DNA of 8,237 nucleotides from the UHGV virus genome UHGV-0217139. One strand, given 5' to 3'. Below are positions 1-8,237 of the stretch, piece by piece (position 1 is the stretch's first letter; each line of letters starts with the position of its first letter). The DNA is from a virus. The position numbers were made by a program, and so were the translations under genes. The notes beneath the pieces were generated by a model, which worked only from the letters and a program-made list of their open reading frames with translations, had not been told where the DNA came from and did not search any database.

Positions 1-126
1 GGCATAACCTGAATCTGAGGCAGCACCTGGCACGGCTGGGACGGAAGTCGCTGTCGTTTTCAAAATCGGTGGAGCTGCATGACAAAGTCATCGGGCATTA
101 TCTGAACATAAAACACTATCAATAAG

Positions 127-615
127 TTGGAGTCATTACCGGAAATCTCAACATTTTCAACTGTAAGAAACTTGTCCCATAGTCCACATAAGCATGTCCT
201 CCCTTTTGGTTTTGTTCAATCTCCAATACTTGCAACCCTCTGCTTAGATAAAAGTTATTTTGGTAGCTTACTACGCCGATTGAACAAACATCATGATCTC
301 AAGCTAAGTGTGTTTATGGATGATGTGATCATCTCGTCAAACGATTTGGCCCAATTACAAGCGGCTTACGACGAAGCACTAGTGGCAATGCGCAAATCTG
401 GTTATCAAGCCAACATGAGTAAAACTCAGGCACCATCGTCAAAGATTAGCGTGTTTAATTTAACTTTGAGTAAGGGAGTTATGAAAGTCACATCTCAGAA
501 AATGAGTGACTTCCTGATTGATTTCTATTCAAGCAATTATGAGCCGCACAGAATAGGGGTCAAAAACTACGTCGAAGCTGTTAATCCAGGGCAAGCGAAA
601 CTCTTTAAGTTGTAA
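127..615 (+). CDS. Reverse-transcriptase-like palm-domain fragment (motifs B to E only), N-terminally truncated; possibly a pseudogene
   Basis: Translation contains LPFGFVQSPILATL (RT motif B-like, LPQG...SP.L), then ~20 aa later SVFMDDVIIS (motif C, YxDD-like with FMDD), then KSGYQANMSKTQ and FNLTLSKG (motif D/E-like G..N..KT and FLG). No motif A is present; the frame is closed by stops at 103-105 and 109-111 and the first possible start is TTG at 127 with no convincing RBS. Composition is visibly AT-richer than the P4 core. Confidence 0.5.
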   Translation: MESLPEISTFSTVRNLSHSPHKHVLPFGFVQSPILATLCLDKSYFGSLLRRLNKHHDLKLSVFMDDVIISSNDLAQLQAAYDEALVAMRKSGYQANMSKTQAPSSKISVFNLTLSKGVMKVTSQKMSDFLIDFYSSNYEPHRIGVKNYVEAVNPGQAKLFKL

Positions 616-880
616 TTGCGATCGCATGTAGTAGCAACTGGGCTTGACTGAATGCCTGCCGCCATTTTGCCGCCACTACCAAAGAAAAAAGGGCTACGCT
701 TTCACGTAACCCCTTGATTTATTTGGGGGCTGGCGGAGTTTGAATAAATAATGTATTGCTTTGATTTTTAATGATTTTGTTTAATTCAGTTTTTGTGCGT
801 ATACCTAATCGTATACCAATGGCTGTAAGTTAATGTGAAATGAAAGCGCATTTTTACTTGGATTGATGCTATATCGTACA

Positions 881-1187
881 GGAAAAAAATTTTTTTTCGA
901 AAGAACTGTTCACACTGTTCACCTTTCTTTTTTCTCCTTTTATTTCAGAGTGATAGGTGGTGAATAATGGGTGAAGGGTGAACATTCGATTCTTCACCTC
1001 CGGCATTCTGCCGGTGTGACTCATACCGGTGATTAATCCCCCATACTGAAATCACACAGGGAGAAAAAAAAGTTTTTTTTGATTTGATTGTTCACACTGT
1101 TCACCTTTCGTTTTTCTCTTTTAATTTCAGTGTGATAACGGGTGAATATACGGTGAAGGGTGAACAGTGGATTGTTCACCTTCGGGG
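881..1187. repeat. crr: P4-type cis replication region (crr): two ~125-bp direct repeats (881-1003 and 1061-1187) with type I iteron octamers
   Basis: The two units are highly similar and start 180 bp apart. Each begins with an A/T tract (A7T8 / A8GT8) and carries TGTTCACAC-TGTTCACC (907-923; 1089-1105), inverted GGTGAA-type copies (956-983; 1140-1166) and a further TTCTTCACC/TGTTCACC (990-998; 1173-1180). As I recall, P4 crr is two 120-bp repeats separated by 60 bp that bind alpha protein via TGTTCACC iterons. Position just 3' of alpha fits. Confidence 0.75.
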
Positions 1188-1230: not shown

Positions 1231-3564
1231 TCAGGCTGTTGTAGGGTCGTCACATTTTGGCAGCCAGTCGCCGTAGCTTTCCTCTTTCAGCGTCAGGTTG
1301 GTCTGTATCCCCTGTTTGGTATGGCGCTTCTCGTAATTCAGCCCGTATTCCTTCAGCATCACCGGCAGCCCCAGCCCGAACATTTTCAGACTGAGTACAT
1401 TCCGGTAGCCGTTTGCCTCCATGTAGGCCAGATAGGCGTGATAGAGGTATTTACGGTAATTACGCGGGATGATACTGGCGTTCCCCATATACATGCCGCT
1501 GGTCTGCGGCAGGGTTTCCAGATAGCCGATAAAATCAAACGTCGGGTCGGCATCCCGTTTGATGTTCAGCGCCTCGTCTGAGTTCTGCTGGGACTGAAGC
1601 AGTGACCGGGCGAGCATCGGGTCGCTGAACTTCTGCATCAGGTGACGCACGATGACCGCCAGCTCGCGGGTGATTTTGTCCTTAAGCTGCGGGTCGCGCT
1701 CCTGCGGGGCTATCTGTTCCGGGAAGTGAATAATCACCCGCCGGCGTGACACGCCGCCGCTGCGGTCGGTGAAGCGCATCGGGTTATTGTTCACGGCCAG
1801 AATCACCGCCGGGATATGCGTGGAGTACGCATCCCGGTATTTCGGATCCACGGACACCGCATCGCCGCCGGTGATGGCCTTGAGTCCGGCACCGTCGCCG
1901 CTCCATTTTTCCTGGTCCGGCAGGCGTATCAGTGAGAAGCCAGTTAACGCGGCACGTTCACGCGGGGATTCCAGCGTCTCAATGGTGGCCGACGTGGCGT
2001 TATCCTCCCCGGCCAGCAGGGTGGCTATTTCGGCCATGATACTTTTGCCGCTGCCGCCGGGACCGGTCACCTCCAGAAAGAGCTGCCAGTCGTAGCGGTT
2101 TGCCAGCACCATAAACAGTGCGGCCAGAATCACGTCGCGTTTTTCCGCACGGCCACCGGCGGCACGGTCAAGCCAGCGCCAGAACGCGGGGGCGTGGGTT
2201 TCCAGCGTTTCCCCTTCCACCGGCGGGGTGAAATCCACATCGCACAGGGTACGCATCCAGTGTGACGGACTGTGCGGGTGGAACGTGCCGTTCTGCGTGT
2301 CGAGCACGCCGTTACGAAAGCCAATCAGGCAGCGGGAGGGGGCTTCCTGCTGCGGAATAATCAGCTTCAGGGTGTCCACCACGGAGGCCACCTTCCCGGA
2401 GGAGAACGGCGCGCGCAGCCGCTGAAACAGCCCGGCCACATCCCGGGCAAAGTCCTGTGGTGGCAGCACCTTCCAGACACCATTTTCATAACGGGACAGA
2501 AGCTGGCCGTTGGCATCGACCGCGAGCGCCTCGCCGTAATGCTCATAGATACGCATGGCCTTTTCGCTGGTACTCATGGCGGAAAACTCCGCTTCGCTCA
2601 TGGTGTCGAACGGGCTTTCAGCCGGTGGCCGGATGGCATCATAAATGGCCTTACGGGTGGCTTCCCCGCCGTACTGCGTGAAGGCATCATTCCAGTCACC
2701 GAAGACCGGCGGCAGGGCAACAACACCTTCACACGCATCTGCGGCTGCGGCGGCTTTTTTCTGGCCGTCACCGCTGAGGTCACGGTCAGCAGCAAGGACT
2801 ATCTGACAGGCCGGATGCTTCTGCCGGGCAAGGCTGGCCAGAGAAAGGAGGTTCACGGAAGAAAGCGCCACCATCACCGTTTCACCGGTCAGGTGATGTA
2901 CGGTAAGTGCGGTCGCGTATCCCTCCGCTATCCACAGACGTTTTCCGGCCTGATTCTGTCCTTCAAGGATGTGACAGGTGCCCCTGACCTGTCCGCCTTT
3001 CAGGGTGCGCTTACGGCCGTCAGCACTGATTAACTGAAGGTTAACCAGTGCGCCGCTGTCGTCATACAGTGGCACCACAAGGTCACCGGCGCGCCAGCTC
3101 ACGCCACCGGCTCTGTGTGTGCCGGTCAGCATCCGGCATTCCCGGCCGGGAAAGCCCTTGCGGGTCAGGTAGGCGTTACCGGTTCCGGGACGGGTTTTTG
3201 CCATCAGGGTTTGTGCCAGTGCGGCGGCGTTCTTCCGGGCAGCGTCTGTTTCAGCAACGGCGGCGGCCGTCACTGCCGGGTCAGCCGGGGGCAGACTGCC
3301 GGTCACGGCAGCCACCTTTGCGGCCGCGTCGGACGGGGAGACACCAAACACCTTTTCAACCAGTTTCAGGCCGTCACCGGCACCACACTGATTGCAGTAC
3401 CAGGTGCCGCGCCCCTCCCTGTCATCAAAACGGAAGCGGTCACTCCCGCCACAGACCGGACAGGGCTGATGACGGTTCTTCAGCACCTGAATCCCCAGCG
3501 CCGGGAGAATACGCGGCCAGTGGCCGAGCGCATGGCTGACGGTGGCGGTTACGTTCATTTTCAT
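1231..3564 (-). CDS. alpha: P4 alpha-type bifunctional DNA primase / helicase (replication initiator)
   Basis: 777-aa ORF. N-terminal zinc-binding primase motif CPVCGGSDRFRFDD...WYCNQCG and Walker A GPGGSGKS in the C-terminal half. RBS AAGGAGA 8 nt upstream of ATG. Length equals P4 alpha as I recall it (777 aa). Followed by crr iterons. Confidence 0.9.
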   Translation of the reverse strand: MKMNVTATVSHALGHWPRILPALGIQVLKNRHQPCPVCGGSDRFRFDDREGRGTWYCNQCGAGDGLKLVEKVFGVSPSDAAAKVAAVTGSLPPADPAVTAAAVAETDAARKNAAALAQTLMAKTRPGTGNAYLTRKGFPGRECRMLTGTHRAGGVSWRAGDLVVPLYDDSGALVNLQLISADGRKRTLKGGQVRGTCHILEGQNQAGKRLWIAEGYATALTVHHLTGETVMVALSSVNLLSLASLARQKHPACQIVLAADRDLSGDGQKKAAAAADACEGVVALPPVFGDWNDAFTQYGGEATRKAIYDAIRPPAESPFDTMSEAEFSAMSTSEKAMRIYEHYGEALAVDANGQLLSRYENGVWKVLPPQDFARDVAGLFQRLRAPFSSGKVASVVDTLKLIIPQQEAPSRCLIGFRNGVLDTQNGTFHPHSPSHWMRTLCDVDFTPPVEGETLETHAPAFWRWLDRAAGGRAEKRDVILAALFMVLANRYDWQLFLEVTGPGGSGKSIMAEIATLLAGEDNATSATIETLESPRERAALTGFSLIRLPDQEKWSGDGAGLKAITGGDAVSVDPKYRDAYSTHIPAVILAVNNNPMRFTDRSGGVSRRRVIIHFPEQIAPQERDPQLKDKITRELAVIVRHLMQKFSDPMLARSLLQSQQNSDEALNIKRDADPTFDFIGYLETLPQTSGMYMGNASIIPRNYRKYLYHAYLAYMEANGYRNVLSLKMFGLGLPVMLKEYGLNYEKRHTKQGIQTNLTLKEESYGDWLPKCDDPTTA

Positions 3565-3578
3565 GGTGTTGTTCTCCT

Positions 3579-3899
3579 TCAGTGCAGTACCGGCGCTTTT
3601 ATGTGACGGGCACAGAGTTCATCCATCACAACCAGCCCGAGAAAGGACAGCGACGGCGCGGCCTTCAGGGGGCCGGATTCCATTAAATCTTCCAGCAGGG
3701 CACAGGCTATCTGACGCCCTTTTTCCTCACCGTGCTGGCGCAGATAAAAGCCCTCCAGCTCAGCGGCGATGGCCGCCTCCAGTGATTCAAGGGTGAGATG
3801 CGGGTAGCGGTGCTGACGTTCGCACACGGTCAGCCAGGCACAGGCGACAGCACGACGGTAAAGGGCTGCGCGTAAGACGGGCGGTAAGGGTGTTTTCAT
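3579..3899 (-). CDS. P4 orf106-like small protein of the left operon (function unknown)
   Basis: 106-aa ORF directly upstream of alpha on the same strand; RBS GGGAGGA 6 nt before ATG; stop 15 nt before alpha start. Length and position match P4 orf106 as recalled. Confidence 0.6.
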
Positions 3900-4034
3900 T
3901 TGCTTTCCTCCCTGTGACAGATGACTGCATTCCGTGCCGGTTGCATTAACTGATAAGGCATATCTGCGTCTCCTGAAGACGTGCGTATCCCTGCGCGAAT
4001 ACGCACATTTAATTTTTCGGGTGTCGTTTTTTAA

Positions 4035-4490
4035 TTACAGATAATTGCGGTAACTGTTATCCGGGGTGATTTCCGGGTCAGGCTCCGTGCGGGGAATTTC
4101 CCGCCATTCCCGCGCCACCGGTGCCGCCCGGCTGACCGGAACAGGGTCCTGCGGGTAAATATCCAGATATTTCTCCCGCCATTTCTGTAATTCCGGGTCT
4201 CCGGCCATTTCTTTCAGTACCGCATGCCGGTTTACGGGGCTGCGTTTAAACAGGTCAGGACGGTCACAGGTAAATTCCCGCAGAAAACGCCCCAGCGGGA
4301 TGTCTGTGGTGCGCCCGTCGGCGAGGATACGCACAAGGATACTGAATTTACGGCGGTACGGGTTCCAGACAATGTCCGGGCAGCGGTACGGCATTTCCCA
4401 CGGAATACCGTCTTCCAGAATGCCGACCACGGCCACATCGGGAAAACCGGCAGAACGGTAAATCTCACCGGGCTGGGGAAAATCAAACAT
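4035..4490 (-). CDS. P4 orf151-like protein (function unknown)
   Basis: 151-aa ORF; its ATG overlaps the epsilon stop by 8 nt (operon coupling). Length and position match P4 orf151 as recalled. Confidence 0.6.
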   Translation of the reverse strand: MFDFPQPGEIYRSAGFPDVAVVGILEDGIPWEMPYRCPDIVWNPYRRKFSILVRILADGRTTDIPLGRFLREFTCDRPDLFKRSPVNRHAVLKEMAGDPELQKWREKYLDIYPQDPVPVSRAAPVAREWREIPRTEPDPEITPDNSYRNYL

Positions 4491-4770
4491 GCGTCCTGTC
4501 TCCCCGGTCTTTCTGCTGGGCGAGAAAATCGCGGCACAGGCCTTTGGCTTTCAGCTCATTCAGCACAAAATCAATATCTTCATTCAGGTAGCTGAAAATA
4601 TGCGGAATGTAGAGCTGATGCAGGCCGGAGAGTTCACGGTGAATCAAATCACCCCCAACAAACTGGGATACGGCGCTGGCGCGGTTGAGCTTATGGTAAG
4701 CCTCAATGCTGAGGTGTTCACAGGCGTCATGACGCGCTGAGACGGTCTGAGGGGCTTTTTTATTACGCAC
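4483..4770 (-). CDS. epsilon: P4 epsilon-like protein (helper-prophage derepression), GTG start
   Basis: The track gives a 175-aa ORF, but the in-frame GTG at 4770 has a GGAGG RBS 6 nt upstream and yields exactly 95 aa, the size I recall for P4 epsilon. The upstream in-frame part overlaps kil/eta in another frame. Confidence 0.55.
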
Positions 4771-4960
4771 GGGACACCTCCACCACCGGCAGACGGGCAG
4801 CAAGGGAGAGCACATAGTCACGGACAAAGGAACGGCGGGCACTGCGTTCATCACCGGCGACGGTGCGAAGCATACAGATACGGGGATGACGGTCTGCGCG
4901 ACGGACAGCCGCAAACACAAAGACAAATTCAGGGTGTGAGGGGGTAAGGGTTGTAGCCAT
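4763..4960 (-). CDS. kil: P4 kil-like 65-aa protein (C-terminal in-frame part of eta)
   Basis: ATG at 4960 preceded by a strong RBS AAGGAGG (7-nt spacer); 65 codons to stop at 4763-4765; overlaps the epsilon start by 8 nt. P4 kil is described as a 65-aa product forming the terminal part of the eta ORF. Confidence 0.6.
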
Positions 4961-5338
4961 AAGGCAGCCTCCTTCGAGTAGCAAATAACTGCTATCGCCG
5001 GAGTTCTCACGCTCGATGGCGATAGCCCAGACGGGGGTGAGAATACCGGCCTCGAAGAATACCGGCCAGCCCGGAGGCTGCCCCGCCTGAGCTACCATTG
5101 ACTCAGTGGCATAACATGCGATTGCGAACAGGATCATACCTGCACGGCAAACCACACGCCACACCATAATCTGGCGCTCTGTGGCGTTGATTGCGACACA
5201 AAAAAAGACGCATGGCGCGTCATATGTCGCCTTCGAGTTACACGGGTTCTCACGCCCGGCTGCCGATTTTGCGGCAACGGAAAGACTATATCCGCAAATG
5301 CCGGTCTGAGGATGAGTCTCCTGTGTCAGGGCTGGCAC
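4763..5338 (-). CDS. eta: P4 eta-like ORF (long form containing kil in frame)
   Basis: 191-aa ORF in the same frame as and ending at the same stop as kil; P4 eta is recalled as ~197-199 aa, starting upstream of the early promoter. The start codon is uncertain. Confidence 0.4.
4990..5300 (-). promoter_or_regulatory. P4-type immunity / early-left leader region (candidate P_LE, seqA/seqB/seqC-like motifs, CI RNA locus); boundaries unresolved
   Basis: Exact 10-mer GTTCTCACGC occurs twice (5003-5012 and 5246-5255), with a partly complementary GGGGGTGAGAATACCGG at 5033-5049. Hairpin GCTATCGCC(4991-4999)/GGCGATAGC(5018-5026) encloses the first copy in its loop. An 11-bp direct repeat GAATACCGGCC lies at 5041-5051 and 5057-5067. 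A -10-like TATAGT sits on the minus strand at 5285-5290. The pattern fits the P4 CI-RNA antisense immunity arrangement, but I cannot place the RNA ends. Confidence 0.35.
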
Positions 5339-5339
5339 A
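5322..5339 (+). promoter_or_regulatory. Delta/Ogr-type activator site (TGT-N12-ACA) at about -55 of the sid late promoter
   Basis: TGTgtcagggctggcACA; the dyad centre is ~82 bp upstream of the sid ATG, consistent with a transcription start near 5385 and a ~27-nt leader. P2/P4 late promoters carry TGT-N12-ACA centred near -55. Confidence 0.55.
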
Positions 5340-5359
5340 TCTGCAATGCGTCGTGTTGT

Positions 5360-5377
5360 TGTCCGGTGTACGTCACA
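5360..5377 (+). promoter_or_regulatory. Second TGT-N12-ACA dyad, ~38 bp downstream of the first (possible promoter-proximal Delta site)
   Basis: TGTccggtgtacgtcACA; centre ~17 bp upstream of the start predicted from the first dyad. I recall P4 Psid having a second Delta site near -18, but this is from memory. Confidence 0.4.
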
Positions 5378-5411
5378 ATTTTCTTAACCTGAAGTGACGA
5401 GGAGCCGGAAA

Positions 5412-6146
5412 ATGTCTGACAACACCATCCCTGAATATCTGCAACCCGCACTGGCACAACTGGAAAAGGCCAGAGCCGCCCACCTTGAGAACGCCCGACT
5501 GATGGATGAGACCGTCACGGCCATTGAACGGGCAGAGCAGGAAAAAAATGCGCTGGCGCAGGCCGACGGAAATGACGCTGATGACTGGCGCACAGCCTTT
5601 CGTGCAGCCGGTGGTGTCCTGAGCGACGAGCTGAAACAGCGCCACATTGAGCGCGTGGCACGCCGGGAGCTGGTACAGGAATATGACAATCTGGCCGTGG
5701 TGCTGAATTTTGAACGTGAACGCCTGAAAGGGGCGTGTGACAGCACGGCCACCGCCTACCGGAAGGCACATCATCACCTTCTGAGTCTGTATGCAGAGCA
5801 TGAGCTGGAACACGCCCTGAATGAAACCTGTGAGGCGCTTGTCCGGGCAATGCATCTGAGCATTCTGGTACAGGAAAATCCGCTCGCCAACACCACCGGC
5901 CATCAGGGCTACGTCGCACCCGATAAGGCTGTCATGCAGCAGGTGAAATCATCGCTGGAACAGAAAATTAAACAGATGCAAATCAGCCTCAGCGGCGAGC
6001 CGGTTCTCCGGCTGACCGGACTGTCAGCGGCAACACTTCCGCACATGGATTATGAGGTGGCAGGCACACCGGCACAGCGCAAGGTGTGGCAGGACAAAAT
6101 AGACCAGCAGGGAGCAGAGCTTAAGGCCAGAGGACTGCTGTCATGA
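5412..6146 (+). CDS. sid: P4 Sid external scaffold (capsid size determination) protein
   Basis: 244 aa from ATG 5412 with RBS GAGGAG upstream (the track ORF begins at an upstream GTG, giving 250 aa). N-terminus MSDNTIPEYLQPALAQLEKARAAHLENARLMDETV matches P4 Sid as recalled; coiled-coil-like composition; stop overlaps the delta start (ATGA). Confidence 0.85.
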   Translation: MSDNTIPEYLQPALAQLEKARAAHLENARLMDETVTAIERAEQEKNALAQADGNDADDWRTAFRAAGGVLSDELKQRHIERVARRELVQEYDNLAVVLNFERERLKGACDSTATAYRKAHHHLLSLYAEHELEHALNETCEALVRAMHLSILVQENPLANTTGHQGYVAPDKAVMQQVKSSLEQKIKQMQISLSGEPVLRLTGLSAATLPHMDYEVAGTPAQRKVWQDKIDQQGAELKARGLLS

Positions 6147-6643
6147 TTTACTGCCCGTCGTGTGGACATGTTGCTCACACCCGCCGCGCACATTTCATGG
6201 ACGATGGCACCAAGATAATGATTGCACAGTGCCGGAATATTTATTGCTCTGCGACATTTGAAGCGAGTGAAAGCTTTTTCTCTGACAGTAAAGATTCAGG
6301 AATGGAATACATTTCAGGCAAACAGAGATACCGCGATTCACTGACGTCAGCCTCCGGCAGTATGAAACGCCCGAAAAGAATGCTTGTTACCGGATATTGT
6401 TGTCGGAGATGTAAAGGCCTTGCACTGTCAAGAACATCGCGGCGTCTGTCTCAGGAAGTCACCGAGCGTTTTTATGTGTGCACGGATCCGGGCTGTGGTC
6501 TGGTGTTTAAAACGCTTCAGACCATCAACCGCTTCATTGTCCGCCCGGTCACACCGGACGAACTGGCAGAACGCCTGCATGAAAAACAGGAACTGCCGCC
6601 AGTACGGTTAAAAACACAATCATATTCGCTGCGTCTGGAATGA
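6143..6643 (+). CDS. delta: P4 Delta late-gene transcriptional activator (tandem Ogr-like zinc finger)
   Basis: 166 aa; two Cys4 zinc-finger modules (CPSCGH...CRNIYC and CRRCKG...CTDPGCG); translationally coupled to sid; same length as P4 delta as recalled. Confidence 0.85.
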   Translation: MIYCPSCGHVAHTRRAHFMDDGTKIMIAQCRNIYCSATFEASESFFSDSKDSGMEYISGKQRYRDSLTSASGSMKRPKRMLVTGYCCRRCKGLALSRTSRRLSQEVTERFYVCTDPGCGLVFKTLQTINRFIVRPVTPDELAERLHEKQELPPVRLKTQSYSLRLE

Positions 6644-6716
6644 GGGCTGCCGGTTAACACCGGCCGTCGCCGCACACCGTATTTTTATTCTTCAGCATGA
6701 TGAGAAAGAGATAACG

Positions 6717-7289
6717 ATGGAAAGCACAGCCTTACAGCAGGCCTTTGACACCTGTCAGAATAACAAAGCAGCATGGCTGCAACGCAAAAATGAGCTGGCA
6801 GCGGCCGAACAGGAATACCTGCGGCTTCTGTCAGGAGAAGGCAGAAACGTCAGTCGCCTGGACGAATTACGCAATATTATCGAAGTCAGAAAATGGCAGG
6901 TGAATCAGGCCGCCGGTCGTTATATTCGTTCGCATGAAGCCGTTCAGCACATCAGCATCCGCGACCGGCTGAATGATTTTATGCAGCAGCACGGCACAGT
7001 ACTGGCGGCCGCACTGGCACCGGAGCTGATGGGCTACAGTGAACTGACGGCCATTGCCCGAAACTGTGCCATACAGCGTGCCACAGATGCCCTGCGTGAA
7101 GCCCTTCTGTCCTGGCTTGCGAAGGGGGAAAAAATTAATTATTCCGCACAGGATAGCGACATTTTAACGACCATCGGATTCAGGCCTGACGCGGCTTCGG
7201 TGGATGACTGCCGTGAAAAATTCACCCCTGCGCAGAACATGATTTTTTCGCGTAAAAGTGCGCAACTGGCATCACGTCAGTCTGTGTAA
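6717..7289 (+). CDS. psu: P4 Psu polarity-suppression (Rho antagonist) / capsid decoration protein
   Basis: 190 aa; RBS AAGAG 6 nt upstream; last gene of the sid-delta-psu operon and directly followed by cos, as in P4; length matches P4 Psu as recalled. Confidence 0.85.
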   Translation: MESTALQQAFDTCQNNKAAWLQRKNELAAAEQEYLRLLSGEGRNVSRLDELRNIIEVRKWQVNQAAGRYIRSHEAVQHISIRDRLNDFMQQHGTVLAAALAPELMGYSELTAIARNCAIQRATDALREALLSWLAKGEKINYSAQDSDILTTIGFRPDAASVDDCREKFTPAQNMIFSRKSAQLASRQSV

Positions 7290-7780: not shown

Positions 7781-8237
7781 TTATTTATATTTTTGTGGGG
7801 TAATTTCAACATATGAAGAAGCGAACCATTCTACAGGTTTTTTGTTTTTCAATTCTTCTGTGTCAAAATTATCATCTGGTGTTGACCTAAATGTAATATA
7901 ATAAACGCCTGGCTTATTTAATCCAACAATATAGCTAAGGGTTTTTTCTGCTCCTATTAAAACATGTGTCTTTGATAATGATTTACTTTTTGATTCTGGA
8001 TAGTGTTTTTTATCTCTCAAAGATGTATAGAGATTTGGTGTAAAAGATTGAGATTGTTCAACTTTATCGCCATTTGCGCTTACTTTGTACACAGTTAAAG
8101 CTCCTTTGGATGTGTCAAAGGATAATGGTCGTTTGCCGTTATTTTTTATGGTTACATTAATAATCATTCCTAGCTGTGTTTTTAACGGGATAACATTAAT
8201 AGCAATACTGCTAGAGTCAGTGCCCTTAATTTGCTCT
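7781..8237 (-). CDS. 3' part of a cargo gene of unknown function in the post-cos variable region; 5' end lies beyond the window
   Basis: The minus-strand frame stays open from the window edge (8236) to the TAA at 7781-7783, giving 152 codons; the M at 8167 in the ORF track is internal. Very AT-rich codon usage unlike the P4 core. Sequence (…VYYITFRSTPDDNFDTEELKNKKPVEWFASSYVEITPQKYK) matches no family I recognise. Confidence 0.55.
   Translation of the reverse strand, partial: EQIKGTDSSSIAINVIPLKTQLGMIINVTIKNNGKRPLSFDTSKGALTVYKVSANGDKVEQSQSFTPNLYTSLRDKKHYPESKSKSLSKTHVLIGAEKTLSYIVGLNKPGVYYITFRSTPDDNFDTEELKNKKPVEWFASSYVEITPQKYK

What the first reader, a model, noticed from the sequence alone, without database searches (positions are those of the whole stretch)
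4763..5338. Nested and overlapping genes: kil inside eta, and epsilon starting at GTG inside the kil stop region
A 65-codon ORF with an excellent RBS is the in-frame tail of a 191-codon ORF, as described for P4 kil/eta. The next gene is best explained by a GTG start with GGAGG RBS giving 95 aa, overlapping the kil stop by 8 nt, rather than the 175-aa reading in the ORF track. This compact overlap is typical of the P4 left operon and easy for automated annotation to miss.
Basis: partly seen in the sequence, partly recalled or inferred. Interest (0 to 1): 0.35.

Follow-up and report, generated by a model that had tools for sequence, protein, structure and literature searches.

The report
P4-type kil/eta/epsilon overlap, eta truncated
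This is the already-described overlapping gene cluster (kil inside eta, then epsilon) of a satellite phage closely related to P4. In this copy a private 751-base deletion has cut off the start of eta along with its promoters, the vis gene and the replication origin, so the finding is ordinary apart from showing a decaying element.

Summary
The window is a P4-like satellite, 97-99% identical to phage P4 and 99.5-99.8% identical to an E. coli prophage.

- **kil:** 65 codons, 4763-4960(-), with an AAGGAGG ribosome-binding site. It is the in-frame tail of a 191-codon ORF.
- **epsilon:** starts at GTG 4770, 6 nt after GGAGG, and overlaps the kil stop by 8 nt. It is 95 aa.

Comparative data support kil and the epsilon start:
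- Kil is under strong purifying selection (pN/pS 0.15-0.2) and belongs to the Icd-like family.
- The 95-aa epsilon matches Pfam PF25738 end to end.
- The start is GTG or ATG in every relative, always behind GGAGG.
- In 11 loci a stop lies 4 codons upstream of it.
- The 175-aa frame shows no coding signal.

The 191-codon ORF, however, is not intact eta. A 751-bp deletion at a TGCCGG microhomology (junction 5299-5304) was not seen in any other sequence searched. It removed eta codons 1-18, vis/alpA, the late promoter region, the ori iterons and the -35 box of the early promoter. The first 13 codons of the ORF are the reverse complement of sid-promoter DNA.

The nested arrangement and its role in RNA-controlled, translation-dependent antitermination were published for P4 in 1999. 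Interest is low.

The parts
4483..4770 (-). epsilon (anti-repressor E / 'derepression protein'). It is 95 aa with a GTG start at 4770, a GGAGG SD at 4781-4777, an 8-nt overlap with the kil stop, and an 8-nt overlap of its own stop with the orf151 ATG (4490).
   Evidence: Pfam PF25738 scores 168 bits and matches 1-95/95. P4 and PGAP both annotate 95 aa. Homologues are 95-99 aa and start at the same column. GTG/ATG plus GGAGG is conserved, and 11 loci have a stop 4 codons upstream.
4763..4960 (-). kil, 65 aa, an Icd-like host cell-division inhibitor / killing protein. It is the first translated gene after the early promoter.
   Evidence: NCBIfam NF033153: E 4e-21, 74.8 bits against a cutoff of 25. 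It is 98.5% identical to P4 8171-8365. pN/pS is 0.15-0.20, and variable columns by codon position are 16/11/48.
4963..4978 (-). kil translation-initiation region (seqC). It comprises CTCGAAGG (4978-4971) and GGAGGCTGCC (4972-4963), includes the SD, and is complementary to two stretches of the CI RNA.
   Evidence: There is a 10-nt perfect complement to CI GGCAGCCUCC and a 7-nt complement to CI CUUCGAG. Six seqC types co-vary with CI and with seqA in about 81 of 86 loci.
4901..4980 (-). C-rich, G-poor stretch at the 5' end of kil. It is a candidate Rho-loading (rut) region of the published terminator timm.
   Evidence: This is the largest C-minus-G excess (+9 to +11 per 60 nt) in the operon leader. 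The position agrees with the published description, but Rho dependence was not tested here.
5015..5102 (-). CI immunity RNA gene (C4 antisense RNA family), lying inside the eta reading frame.
   Evidence: Rfam RF01695: 74.3 bits against a gathering score of 45, full length 1-87.
5201..5291 (-). 5' leader of the early (PLE) transcript. It gives the isrK-type RNA match 5201-5278, with a terminator-like hairpin at 5221-5207 plus a U-run. It also gives the c4-a1b1 target match 5239-5291, and contains seqA CTCGAAGG at 5237-5230.
   Evidence: Rfam RF01394 scores 67 bits and RF03163 scores 50.3 bits. The terminator scan is.
5285..5290 (-). TATAGT, the surviving -10 hexamer of the early promoter PLE. 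Its -35 (TTGCCT) has been deleted.
   Evidence: The intact relative has TTGCCT-18-TATAGT, whereas no promoter-like site is found in window 4700-5480. The same hexamer is annotated 'consensus -10 sequence' in X02534. The isrK model starts 7 nt downstream, at 5278.
5299..5304 (.). Junction of a 751-bp deletion at a TGCCGG microhomology. The missing segment corresponds to P4 8719-9469 and L003 6082-6832. It held the -35 of PLE, eta codons 1-18, vis/alpA, the PLL-side activator dyad and five ori iterons.
   Evidence: BLAST and MAFFT against P4 and L003. The junction is absent from 5,426 E. coli genomes and from the viral, genome and metagenome collections. Only the window has a sid-kil distance of 451; the others have 1171-1226.
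4763..5338 (-). The 191-codon ORF. It consists of 178 native eta codons (from ICGYS...) fused to 13 fortuitous codons ([13 protein letters not shown], 5338-5300) derived from the antisense of the sid-promoter region. It is a truncated eta remnant that contains kil.
   Evidence: Translation compared with the 196-aa eta of L003. In P4 the same 13 codons head an unrelated 48-aa ORF. No SD precedes GTG 5338. Pfam PF10554 Phage_ASH matches residues 17-138.
5322..5377 (+). Two TGT-N12-ACA dyads (5322-5339 and 5360-5377) upstream of the sid ATG at 5413. They are the retained sid late-promoter control region, and the first dyad overlaps the ORF's GTG.
   Evidence: Pattern search; the same two dyads occur in L003. 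Their assignment as Delta/Ogr sites rests on established knowledge of P2/P4 late promoters and was not tested here.

Best explanation
The region is the immunity and early-control segment of the left operon of a P4-like satellite prophage. In intact relatives it contains a stack of overlapping elements: the constitutive early promoter PLE, a leader carrying seqA, the CI immunity RNA, the kil ribosome-binding site (seqC), kil, and then epsilon.

The published P4 logic fits what the sequence shows.

- **Immunity.** CI RNA pairs with the kil Shine-Dalgarno region. Untranslated kil RNA exposes a C-rich stretch, and Rho terminates transcription (timm). This keeps epsilon and alpha off.
- **Readthrough.** When kil is translated, or when eta is translated from the upstream late promoter PLL (eta is the same frame, entered by coupling to the vis/alpA stop), ribosomes cover the terminator and transcription continues.
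- **Epsilon.** It is then translated by coupling, from a GTG that overlaps the kil/eta stop by 8 nt behind a GGAGG embedded in the last kil codons.

The eta-specific 130 codons appear to be selected only for staying open, not for their amino-acid sequence.

In this particular window a private 751-bp microhomology deletion removed the -35 of PLE, the eta start, vis/alpA, the PLL region and the ori iterons. What remains is intact kil, CI and epsilon genes behind a crippled promoter, plus a truncated eta frame with an accidental GTG head. I infer that the element is transcriptionally nearly silent on this side, defective for replication and excision, and recently inactivated, because all other genes keep P4 lengths.

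Shown here: the coordinates, the homology, the selection patterns, the RNA matches, the complementarity and its covariation, and the deletion and its content. Inferred: Rho dependence, promoter inactivity, translational coupling and loss of replication.
For: **Identity of the locus.** The region is 97.1% and 98.9% identical to P4 on either side of the gap. It is 99.5% and 99.8% identical to an E. coli prophage that has eta (196 aa), vis (88 aa) and epsilon (95 aa) annotated.

**kil.** It matches NF033153 at 74.8 bits. pN/pS is 0.15-0.20 in the kil frame, against 2.3-3.2 in the other frames.

**epsilon.** PF25738 matches 1-95/95. Homologues from Escherichia, Salmonella, Citrobacter, Enterobacter, Klebsiella, Serratia, Edwardsiella and Buttiauxella are 95-99 aa and start at the same column. 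The 95-aa start is the only one common to 87 loci, and 11 loci have a stop 4 codons upstream of it. GGAGG lies 6 nt upstream of the start codon in all eight diverged loci examined, with the start GTG in the window and P4 and ATG in the other six.

**eta.**
- The frame is open for at least 180 codons in 84 of 87 loci.
- It has 0 stops, against 302 and 432 in the other two frames.
- It is also open in 4 loci where gene callers reported only the 64-66-aa kil.
- Despite this, pN/pS is about 0.8 and there is no codon periodicity, with 63/65/66 variable columns.

**RNA elements.** C4/CI, isrK-type and a1b1 Rfam hits all lie inside the ORF. CI has a 10-nt perfect complement to the kil SD. seqA, seqB and seqC co-vary three ways over six sequence types. 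A C>G bubble sits at the kil 5' end.

**Deletion.** The promoter TTGCCT-18-TATAGT is present in the relative and lost in the window. The ori iterons and the PLL-side dyad are lost.

**Published model.** It is summarised in PMC10111431, which cites Forti et al. 1999 J Bacteriol 181:5225. Epsilon as an anti-repressor of P2 C is described in PMC2995052.
Against: - No expression data exist for this locus. A -10-only promoter may retain some activity, and readthrough from upstream antisense transcription cannot be excluded.
- Rho dependence and the position of timm rest on the literature for P4 and on a composition signal only.
- The near-neutral pN/pS of the eta-specific part could be partly masked by overlapping RNA constraints. 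However, the inter-RNA segments give the same values (0.73-1.1).
- The identification of TTGCCT-18-TATAGT as PLE rests on three things: its position relative to the RNA 5' ends, a 1984 '-10' annotation, and my recollection of the P4 literature. I could not read the primary papers.
- The deletion could be an assembly error, since no reads are available.
Confidence: 0.85

Rival explanations
1. The 191-codon ORF is a genuine, functional eta variant of this element. On this reading it is translated from GTG 5338, and the compact sid-eta junction is a natural alternative architecture of P4-like satellites.
For: The frame is open from 5338, and by coincidence it begins V-P-A-L, like P4 Eta (M-M-M-P-A-L). 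alpA-less P4-like variants are common (PMC8628076).
Against: - Codons 1-13 are the antisense of the sid-promoter region. In P4 and L003 that region sits 750 bp away from eta and heads an unrelated 48-aa ORF.
- No SD precedes the GTG, and no promoter-like site lies upstream.
- The junction was found in none of 87 related loci or 5,426 E. coli genomes, nor in three contig collections.
- The nearest relative, 99.5-99.8% identical, has the full segment.
- The published alpA-less variants keep a frameshifted pseudogene rather than a deletion.
Confidence: 0.04
2. The 751-bp gap is an assembly or cloning artefact, and the real genome carries an intact vis-eta-ori segment. In that case the window would hold the standard P4 kil/eta nest.
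For: The junction is unique among all sequences searched. The flanks are otherwise 99.5-99.8% identical to an intact element. The ori region contains short iterons that can trouble assemblers.
Against: The breakpoints fall at a clean 6-bp direct repeat (TGCCGG) outside the iterons, which is the signature of a real illegitimate-recombination deletion. Assemblers rarely collapse 751 bp of unique sequence. The neighbourhood shows other decay, namely an IS end abutting a truncated reverse-transcriptase gene.
Confidence: 0.1
3. Epsilon starts upstream, giving the 175-aa reading (GTG 5010) or another in-frame start inside kil, so kil and epsilon overlap extensively in two frames.
For: The epsilon frame stays open for about 107 codons upstream of GTG 4770 in most E. 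coli-type loci.
Against: - 11 loci have a stop 4 codons upstream of the GTG, another locus allows at most 109 codons, and the upstream starts are not conserved.
- pN/pS in that frame across kil is 2.3-3.0.
- The Pfam model begins exactly at the GTG.
- The few long database proteins begin with the Kil N-terminus and then continue in the epsilon frame. I read them as frameshifted or mis-called kil-epsilon fusions.
Confidence: 0.01
4. The deletion rewired the operon. The sid-promoter activator dyads now lie upstream of the surviving PLE -10. They could act as a new helper-activated (Ogr/Delta-dependent) promoter that replaces PLL and expresses kil-epsilon-alpha only when a P2-type helper is active.
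For: A -10 without a -35, combined with an upstream TGT-N12-ACA dyad, is the general layout of P2/P4 late promoters. Dyads are retained at 5322-5339 and 5360-5377, and the -10 lies at 5290-5285.
Against: Taking 5278 as the transcription start, the dyad centres lie at about -52 (5330.5) and about -90 (5368.5). A promoter-less silent state is the simpler reading.
Confidence: 0.05

Closest known systems
Bacteriophage P4 kil/eta nested genes with CI RNA immunity (Forti et al. 1999, J Bacteriol 181:5225; summarised in PMC10111431)
   Same: Kil is 65 aa and 98.5% identical. The CI RNA gene, seqA and seqC have the same layout, and the kil SD is complementary to CI. The same frame extends upstream of kil through CI and the PLE leader. 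The kil stop / epsilon GTG overlap of 8 nt is the same.
   Different: The eta start (MMM at the vis stop), vis, the PLL region, ori and the PLE -35 are deleted here. The immunity-specificity 8-mer is CTCGAAGG instead of P4's TTCACAGG, with matching changes in CI and seqA.
P4 epsilon (E) anti-repressor of P2 C; Pfam PF25738 'Derepression protein'
   Same: It is 95 aa with a GTG start and matches the model full length. It sits between kil and orf151 with 8-nt overlaps on both sides.
   Different: It differs from P4 only by a few substitutions. Nothing about it is unusual.
Icd / C4-RNA immunity modules of P1, P7, N15 and PY54 (icd downstream of a C4-type antisense RNA; NCBIfam NF033153)
   Same: A small Icd-like ORF sits directly downstream of a C4-family RNA whose loops pair with the ORF's translation start. 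Kil is 42-52% identical to the N15 and PY54 icd-region products.
   Different: In those phages the module controls an antirepressor (ant) operon of a full temperate phage. Here it controls a satellite's epsilon-alpha operon, and an upstream in-frame extension (eta) is entered from a late promoter.
alpA-less ('Type B#03') P4-like satellites (de Sousa & Rocha 2021, PMC8628076)
   Same: The element has psu, delta, sid, the eta/ash ORF, epsilon and alpha, but no functional alpA/vis.
   Different: The published alpA-less variants almost all retain a frameshifted alpA pseudogene. Here alpA is removed cleanly, together with ori and both left-operon promoter elements.

Membership tests
Icd-like host cell division inhibitor (P4 Kil; NCBIfam NF033153) | Sequence matches the family model above the curated cutoff | tested here: met
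   74.8 bits against a cutoff of 25; residues 12-59 match model positions 1-48/48.
Icd-like host cell division inhibitor (P4 Kil; NCBIfam NF033153) | Lies directly downstream of a C4/CI-type antisense RNA, and its translation start is complementary to that RNA | tested here: met
   The C4 hit is at 5015-5102 and the kil ATG at 4960. There is a 10-nt perfect complement over the SD, and covariation over six types.
Icd-like host cell division inhibitor (P4 Kil; NCBIfam NF033153) | Protein-level conservation of the short ORF | tested here: met
   pN/pS is 0.15-0.20, and codon-position variability is 16/11/48.
Icd-like host cell division inhibitor (P4 Kil; NCBIfam NF033153) | Overexpression kills cells or blocks division | not testable with these tools
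   This needs an expression assay. It is reported for P4 Kil in the literature.
P4 eta (long form of the kil frame) | In-frame upstream extension of kil that spans the CI RNA gene and the PLE leader | tested here: met
   178 native eta codons are retained and align with the 196-aa eta of L003. The Rfam hits lie inside the ORF.
P4 eta (long form of the kil frame) | Start codon(s) (MMM) overlapping the vis/alpA stop, giving translational coupling | tested here: not met
   The start and vis are deleted. The ORF head [13 protein letters not shown] is foreign sequence without an SD. All intact relatives have the 4-nt vis/eta overlap.
P4 eta (long form of the kil frame) | Expression from an upstream late promoter (PLL) with an activator dyad | tested here: not met
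   The dyad at L003 6496-6513, upstream of vis, lies in the deleted interval and has no counterpart in the window.
P4 epsilon / Derepression protein (PF25738) | Full-length match to the family model | tested here: met
   168 bits against a cutoff of 27; residues 1-95 match model positions 1-95.
P4 epsilon / Derepression protein (PF25738) | Start codon overlapping the kil/eta stop behind a GGAGG inside kil | tested here: met
   The overlap is 8 nt here and 8-14 nt in relatives. GGAGG is conserved and GTG alternates with ATG.
P4 epsilon / Derepression protein (PF25738) | Binds and inactivates the P2 C repressor | not testable with these tools
   Known for the P4 E protein (PMC2995052). It is inferred here from 94-97% identity.
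C4 antisense RNA family (RF01695; P4 CI RNA) | Covariance-model match above the gathering score | tested here: met
   74.3 bits against 45, with model positions 1-87/87 matched.
P4-like satellite (core set int, psu, delta, sid, alpA, epsilon/ash, alpha) | Presence and order of the core genes | tested here: inconclusive
   psu (190 aa), delta (166), sid (244), the eta/ash ORF, epsilon (95) and alpha (777) are present in P4 order. alpA is absent because of the deletion. The integrase lies outside the window.
P4-like satellite (core set int, psu, delta, sid, alpha, plus cis sites) | Replication origin (ori iterons) together with crr | tested here: not met
   Only the five crr copies of TGTTCACC remain (916-1180). 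The five ori copies of the relative fall in the deleted segment.

The most novel reading that the evidence does not exclude
The eta-specific 130 codons may be a 'translated spacer'. On this reading the reading frame is kept open across genera only so that ribosomes can escort late transcripts through two small-RNA genes and a Rho terminator, and the amino-acid sequence is not under selection. The Pfam family Phage_ASH (PF10554), which satellite-detection pipelines use as the 'epsilon' marker, would then largely reflect conservation of the overlapping CI/seqA RNA elements rather than of a protein domain, at least in P4-like elements.
Probability: 0.55. Interest if true: 0.3.

Novelty: already known. 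Interest (0 to 1): 0.15.

Why it matters
There is little new biology here. The kil-in-eta nest, CI RNA control of kil translation, translation-dependent readthrough of timm, and the 95-aa GTG-initiated epsilon were all worked out for P4 between 1984 and 1999.

The practical value lies in annotation.
- The reference P4 record still labels this frame a 137-aa 'transcriptional repressor'.
- Pipelines call either the long form or the 65-aa form.
- The satellite literature uses the eta/ash Pfam model as its 'epsilon' marker.

This copy also shows how one microhomology deletion can silence a satellite, removing both left-operon promoters, vis and ori, while leaving every remaining ORF intact. ORF-based 'completeness' scores would miss that.

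Tried and rejected
- **Junction searches.** I searched for the deletion junction (a 23-mer) in IMG/VR, GTDB representative genomes and JGI metagenomes, with no match. I also looked for a contiguous match in 5,426 complete E. coli genomes and found none; matches break at the junction. The deletion therefore cannot be called a recurrent architecture.
- **Primary papers.** I tried to read Forti et al. 1999 (PMC94026) and Liu et al. 1997 (PMC191670), but neither is held. Keyword searches for PLE/PLL/Psid returned nothing useful. Promoter names and timm therefore rest on a secondary summary and on my own knowledge.
- **The 175-aa epsilon.** I considered it and rejected it.
- **Long epsilon-family database proteins (137-167 aa).** I considered these as evidence for a longer epsilon. 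I rejected that because they begin with the Kil N-terminus and then continue in the epsilon frame, which I read as frameshifted or mis-called kil-epsilon fusions.
- **Short kil calls in Klebsiella-type loci.** I considered that loci where only a 64-66-aa kil is called might lack an open eta frame. They do not: the frame is open back to MMM at the vis stop.
- **Structure prediction.** I did not run it. It would not bear on the overlap question.
Full report
**What the window is**

The 8.2-kb window carries the P4 gene set in P4 order and with P4 lengths.
- On the minus strand: alpha 1231-3564 (777 aa), orf106/cnr 3579-3899, orf151 4035-4490, epsilon, and kil/eta.
- On the plus strand: sid 5413-6146 (244 aa), delta 6143-6643 (166 aa), and psu 6717-7289 (190 aa).

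Window 2900-5304 is 97.1% identical to P4, and 5299-6997 is 98.9% identical. The closest complete-genome relative is an E. coli prophage in the ssrA island region. It is 99.5% and 99.8% identical on the two sides of a gap.

**Checking the observation**

Every stated feature is present.
- The minus-strand ORF 4763-5338 has 191 codons, starting at GTG 5338.
- The in-frame ATG at 4960 is preceded by AAGGAGG (4974-4968, 7-nt spacer). It gives 65 aa, [65 protein letters not shown].
- GTG 4770 is preceded by GGAGG (4781-4777, 6-nt spacer). It gives 95 aa ending at 4483 and overlaps the kil stop by 8 nt (GTGCGTAA).
- The epsilon stop overlaps the orf151 ATG by 8 nt in the same way.

**kil is a real protein-coding gene**

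- Kil matches the NCBIfam Icd-like host cell-division inhibitor model (NF033153) at 74.8 bits against a cutoff of 25.
- It is 98.5% identical to P4 8171-8365 and 42-52% identical to the icd-region products of N15 and PY54.
- I compared 73 unique sequences from 87 related loci: IMG/VR contigs, P4, the E. coli relative, and Enterobacter, Klebsiella, Serratia and Edwardsiella loci.
- In that set the kil frame has pN/pS 0.15 (0.20 among the seven most diverged). Variable columns by codon position are 16/11/48. The other two frames give 2.3-3.2.

**epsilon starts at the GTG**

- P4's own record annotates epsilon as 95 aa at 7888-8175, overlapping the upstream frame by 8 nt. PGAP annotates 95 aa in the 99.6% relative.
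- Pfam PF25738 (95 model positions) matches residues 1-95 of the short reading. In the 175-aa reading the match starts only at residue 82.
- Of the 91 database homologues listed, the full-length ones aligned are almost all 95-99 aa and start at the same alignment column. They come from eight enterobacterial genera.
- The few long homologues begin with the Kil N-terminus and then continue in the epsilon frame. I read them as frameshifted or mis-called kil-epsilon fusions.
- At the DNA level, the 95-aa start is the only candidate shared by all loci. In 11 loci a stop lies four codons upstream of it.
- In the six more distant loci examined the start is ATG, and GGAGG lies 6 nt upstream in all eight loci compared.
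- The 175-aa reading is an artefact of an accidentally open frame in GC-rich DNA.

**What lies inside the 'eta' frame**

Rfam places three RNA elements on the same strand inside the ORF:
- the CI immunity RNA (C4 family, 5015-5102, 74.3 bits);
- an isrK-type leader RNA (5201-5278), which carries a terminator-like hairpin;
- the a1/b1-type target element (5239-5291).

CI contains GGCAGCCUCC, a perfect 10-nt complement of the kil SD region (4972-4963). It also contains CUUCGAG, the complement of CUCGAAG just upstream of that region.

Across 86 loci the 8-mer abutting the kil SD takes six main forms. These are CTCGAAGG (the form here), GTTATCGG, TTCACAGG (the form in P4), TCTAACGG, CTTCAAGG and CTTATTGG. 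In about 81 of the 86 loci its reverse complement is present in CI, and the same 8-mer is present in the 5' leader.

This three-way covariation is strong comparative support for the published mechanism, in which CI RNA pairs with seqA and seqC and blocks kil translation. It also shows that this element has a different immunity type from P4.

The most C-rich, G-poor stretch of the leader (4980-4901) coincides with the start of kil. This is consistent with a Rho-loading site at the reported position of timm. Rho dependence itself was not tested here.

**eta in intact relatives**

- In every intact relative the kil frame extends upstream to MMM, MM or MN codons that overlap the stop of vis/alpA by 4 nt, giving 185-199 aa.
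- This also holds in four loci reached through Kil, where gene callers had reported only the 64-66-aa form.
- The frame is open for at least 180 codons in 84 of 87 loci. The eta-specific part has no stops, against 302 and 432 stops in the other two frames.
- Yet the eta-specific codons show pN/pS of about 0.8 in every sub-segment, including those between the RNA elements. They also show no codon periodicity, with 63/65/66 variable columns.
- This fits the published conclusion that it is translation of eta, not its product, that prevents termination of late transcripts (summary in PMC10111431).
- It also suggests that the Pfam 'Ash' family match (PF10554, residues 17-138) mainly tracks RNA-level conservation.

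**The twist in this window**

Relative to both P4 and the 99.5-99.8% relative, the window lacks 751 bp (P4 8719-9469; L003 6082-6832). The breakpoints are joined at a 6-bp direct repeat, TGCCGG, at window 5299-5304. The lost segment contained five things:
- the -35 box of the promoter TTGCCT-18-TATAGT, which the scan finds in the relative but not in the window. Its -10 (5290-5285) survives. It is annotated as a -10 in the 1984 P4 record and sits 7 nt upstream of the isrK-model 5' end;
- eta codons 1-18, including the MMM starts;
- vis/alpA;
- a TGT-N12-ACA dyad about 100 bp upstream of vis. I take this to be the PLL activator site;
- the five ori copies of the TGTTCACC iteron. The five crr copies at 916-1180 remain.

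The first 13 codons of the 191-codon ORF ([13 protein letters not shown]) are the antisense of the sid-promoter region. In P4 the same codons head an unrelated 48-aa ORF. No SD precedes GTG 5338. That GTG overlaps a retained sid-side dyad at 5322-5339.

The junction appears nowhere else that I searched:
- no contiguous match in 5,426 complete E. coli genomes, although 1,005 of them match each flank;
- no hit in the viral, genome or metagenome contig collections;
- a sid-kil spacing of 451 bp only in the window, against 1171-1226 bp in all other loci where it could be measured.

**Interpretation**

The nested and overlapping gene arrangement is the known P4 one. kil, CI RNA and epsilon are intact members of it, while eta is a truncated remnant.

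I infer that this copy can no longer express the left operon normally, having lost the PLE -35 and the PLL region. I also infer that it can no longer excise (no vis) or replicate (no ori). The inactivation looks recent, because all remaining ORFs keep full length.

alpA loss is frequent in P4-like satellites, although usually by frameshift (PMC8628076). An assembly artefact cannot be excluded without reads, but the clean microhomology junction argues for a real deletion.

**Verdict**

The arrangement is already known, and interest is low.

Noticed in passing
window 5299-5304 (junction); missing segment = L003 6082-6832 / P4 8719-9469: A private 751-bp microhomology (TGCCGG) deletion removes vis/alpA, the ori iterons, the PLL-side dyad, the PLE -35 and the eta start. 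It is not seen in any other sequence searched.
   Followed up: yes
window 4971-4978, 5230-5237 and the CI RNA at 5015-5102; loci L004-L087: At least six 'immunity types' exist among P4-like elements. The 8-mer next to the kil SD co-varies with its complement in CI RNA and with a copy in the 5' leader. The window has CTCGAAGG and P4 has TTCACAGG, so the two are probably heteroimmune.
   Followed up: partly
window 4766-5338 (Pfam hit on residues 17-138) versus 4486-4770: Pfam PF10554 'Phage_ASH' hits the eta frame, not epsilon. The P4-like satellite survey (PMC8628076) nevertheless uses PF10554 as its 'epsilon' marker. True epsilon is PF25738. RefSeq P4 still annotates a 137-aa 'transcriptional repressor' in this frame and has no kil, eta or CI RNA features.
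   Followed up: partly
window 882-1003 and 1062-1185; TGTTCACC at 916, 977, 1098, 1159 and 1173: Two diverged direct repeats of about 120 bp, carrying five type-1 iterons, lie downstream of alpha. This is the crr element, retained although ori is gone.
   Followed up: partly
window 1-744: Bases 1-140 match a sequence present in many copies in nearly all E. coli genomes, probably an IS end. Bases 141-744 are the 3' part of a reverse-transcriptase-domain gene (Pfam RVT_1, weak retron and group II hits) next to an ssrA-derived att repeat. A second, decayed island appears to abut the satellite.
   Followed up: partly
window 5201-5278 (-): There is a full-length match to the Salmonella IsrK Hfq-binding sRNA family, with an intrinsic-terminator-like hairpin (5221-5207) plus a U-run. 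It lies between the early promoter and the CI RNA, inside the eta frame. How transcripts pass this hairpin to make CI is not clear from the sequence alone.
   Followed up: no
L092 2501-2919; L093 1675-2093: Some Klebsiella-type P4-like loci lack epsilon. In them kil is followed directly, with a 4-nt overlap, by a 75-aa gene and then by cnr.
   Followed up: no
window 7781-8237 (-): A low-GC gene downstream of psu and cos corresponds to a 217-aa hypothetical protein in the relative and is cut by the window end. It lies in the known defence hotspot of P4-like satellites, and its function is unknown (only a weak DUF4352 hit).
   Followed up: no
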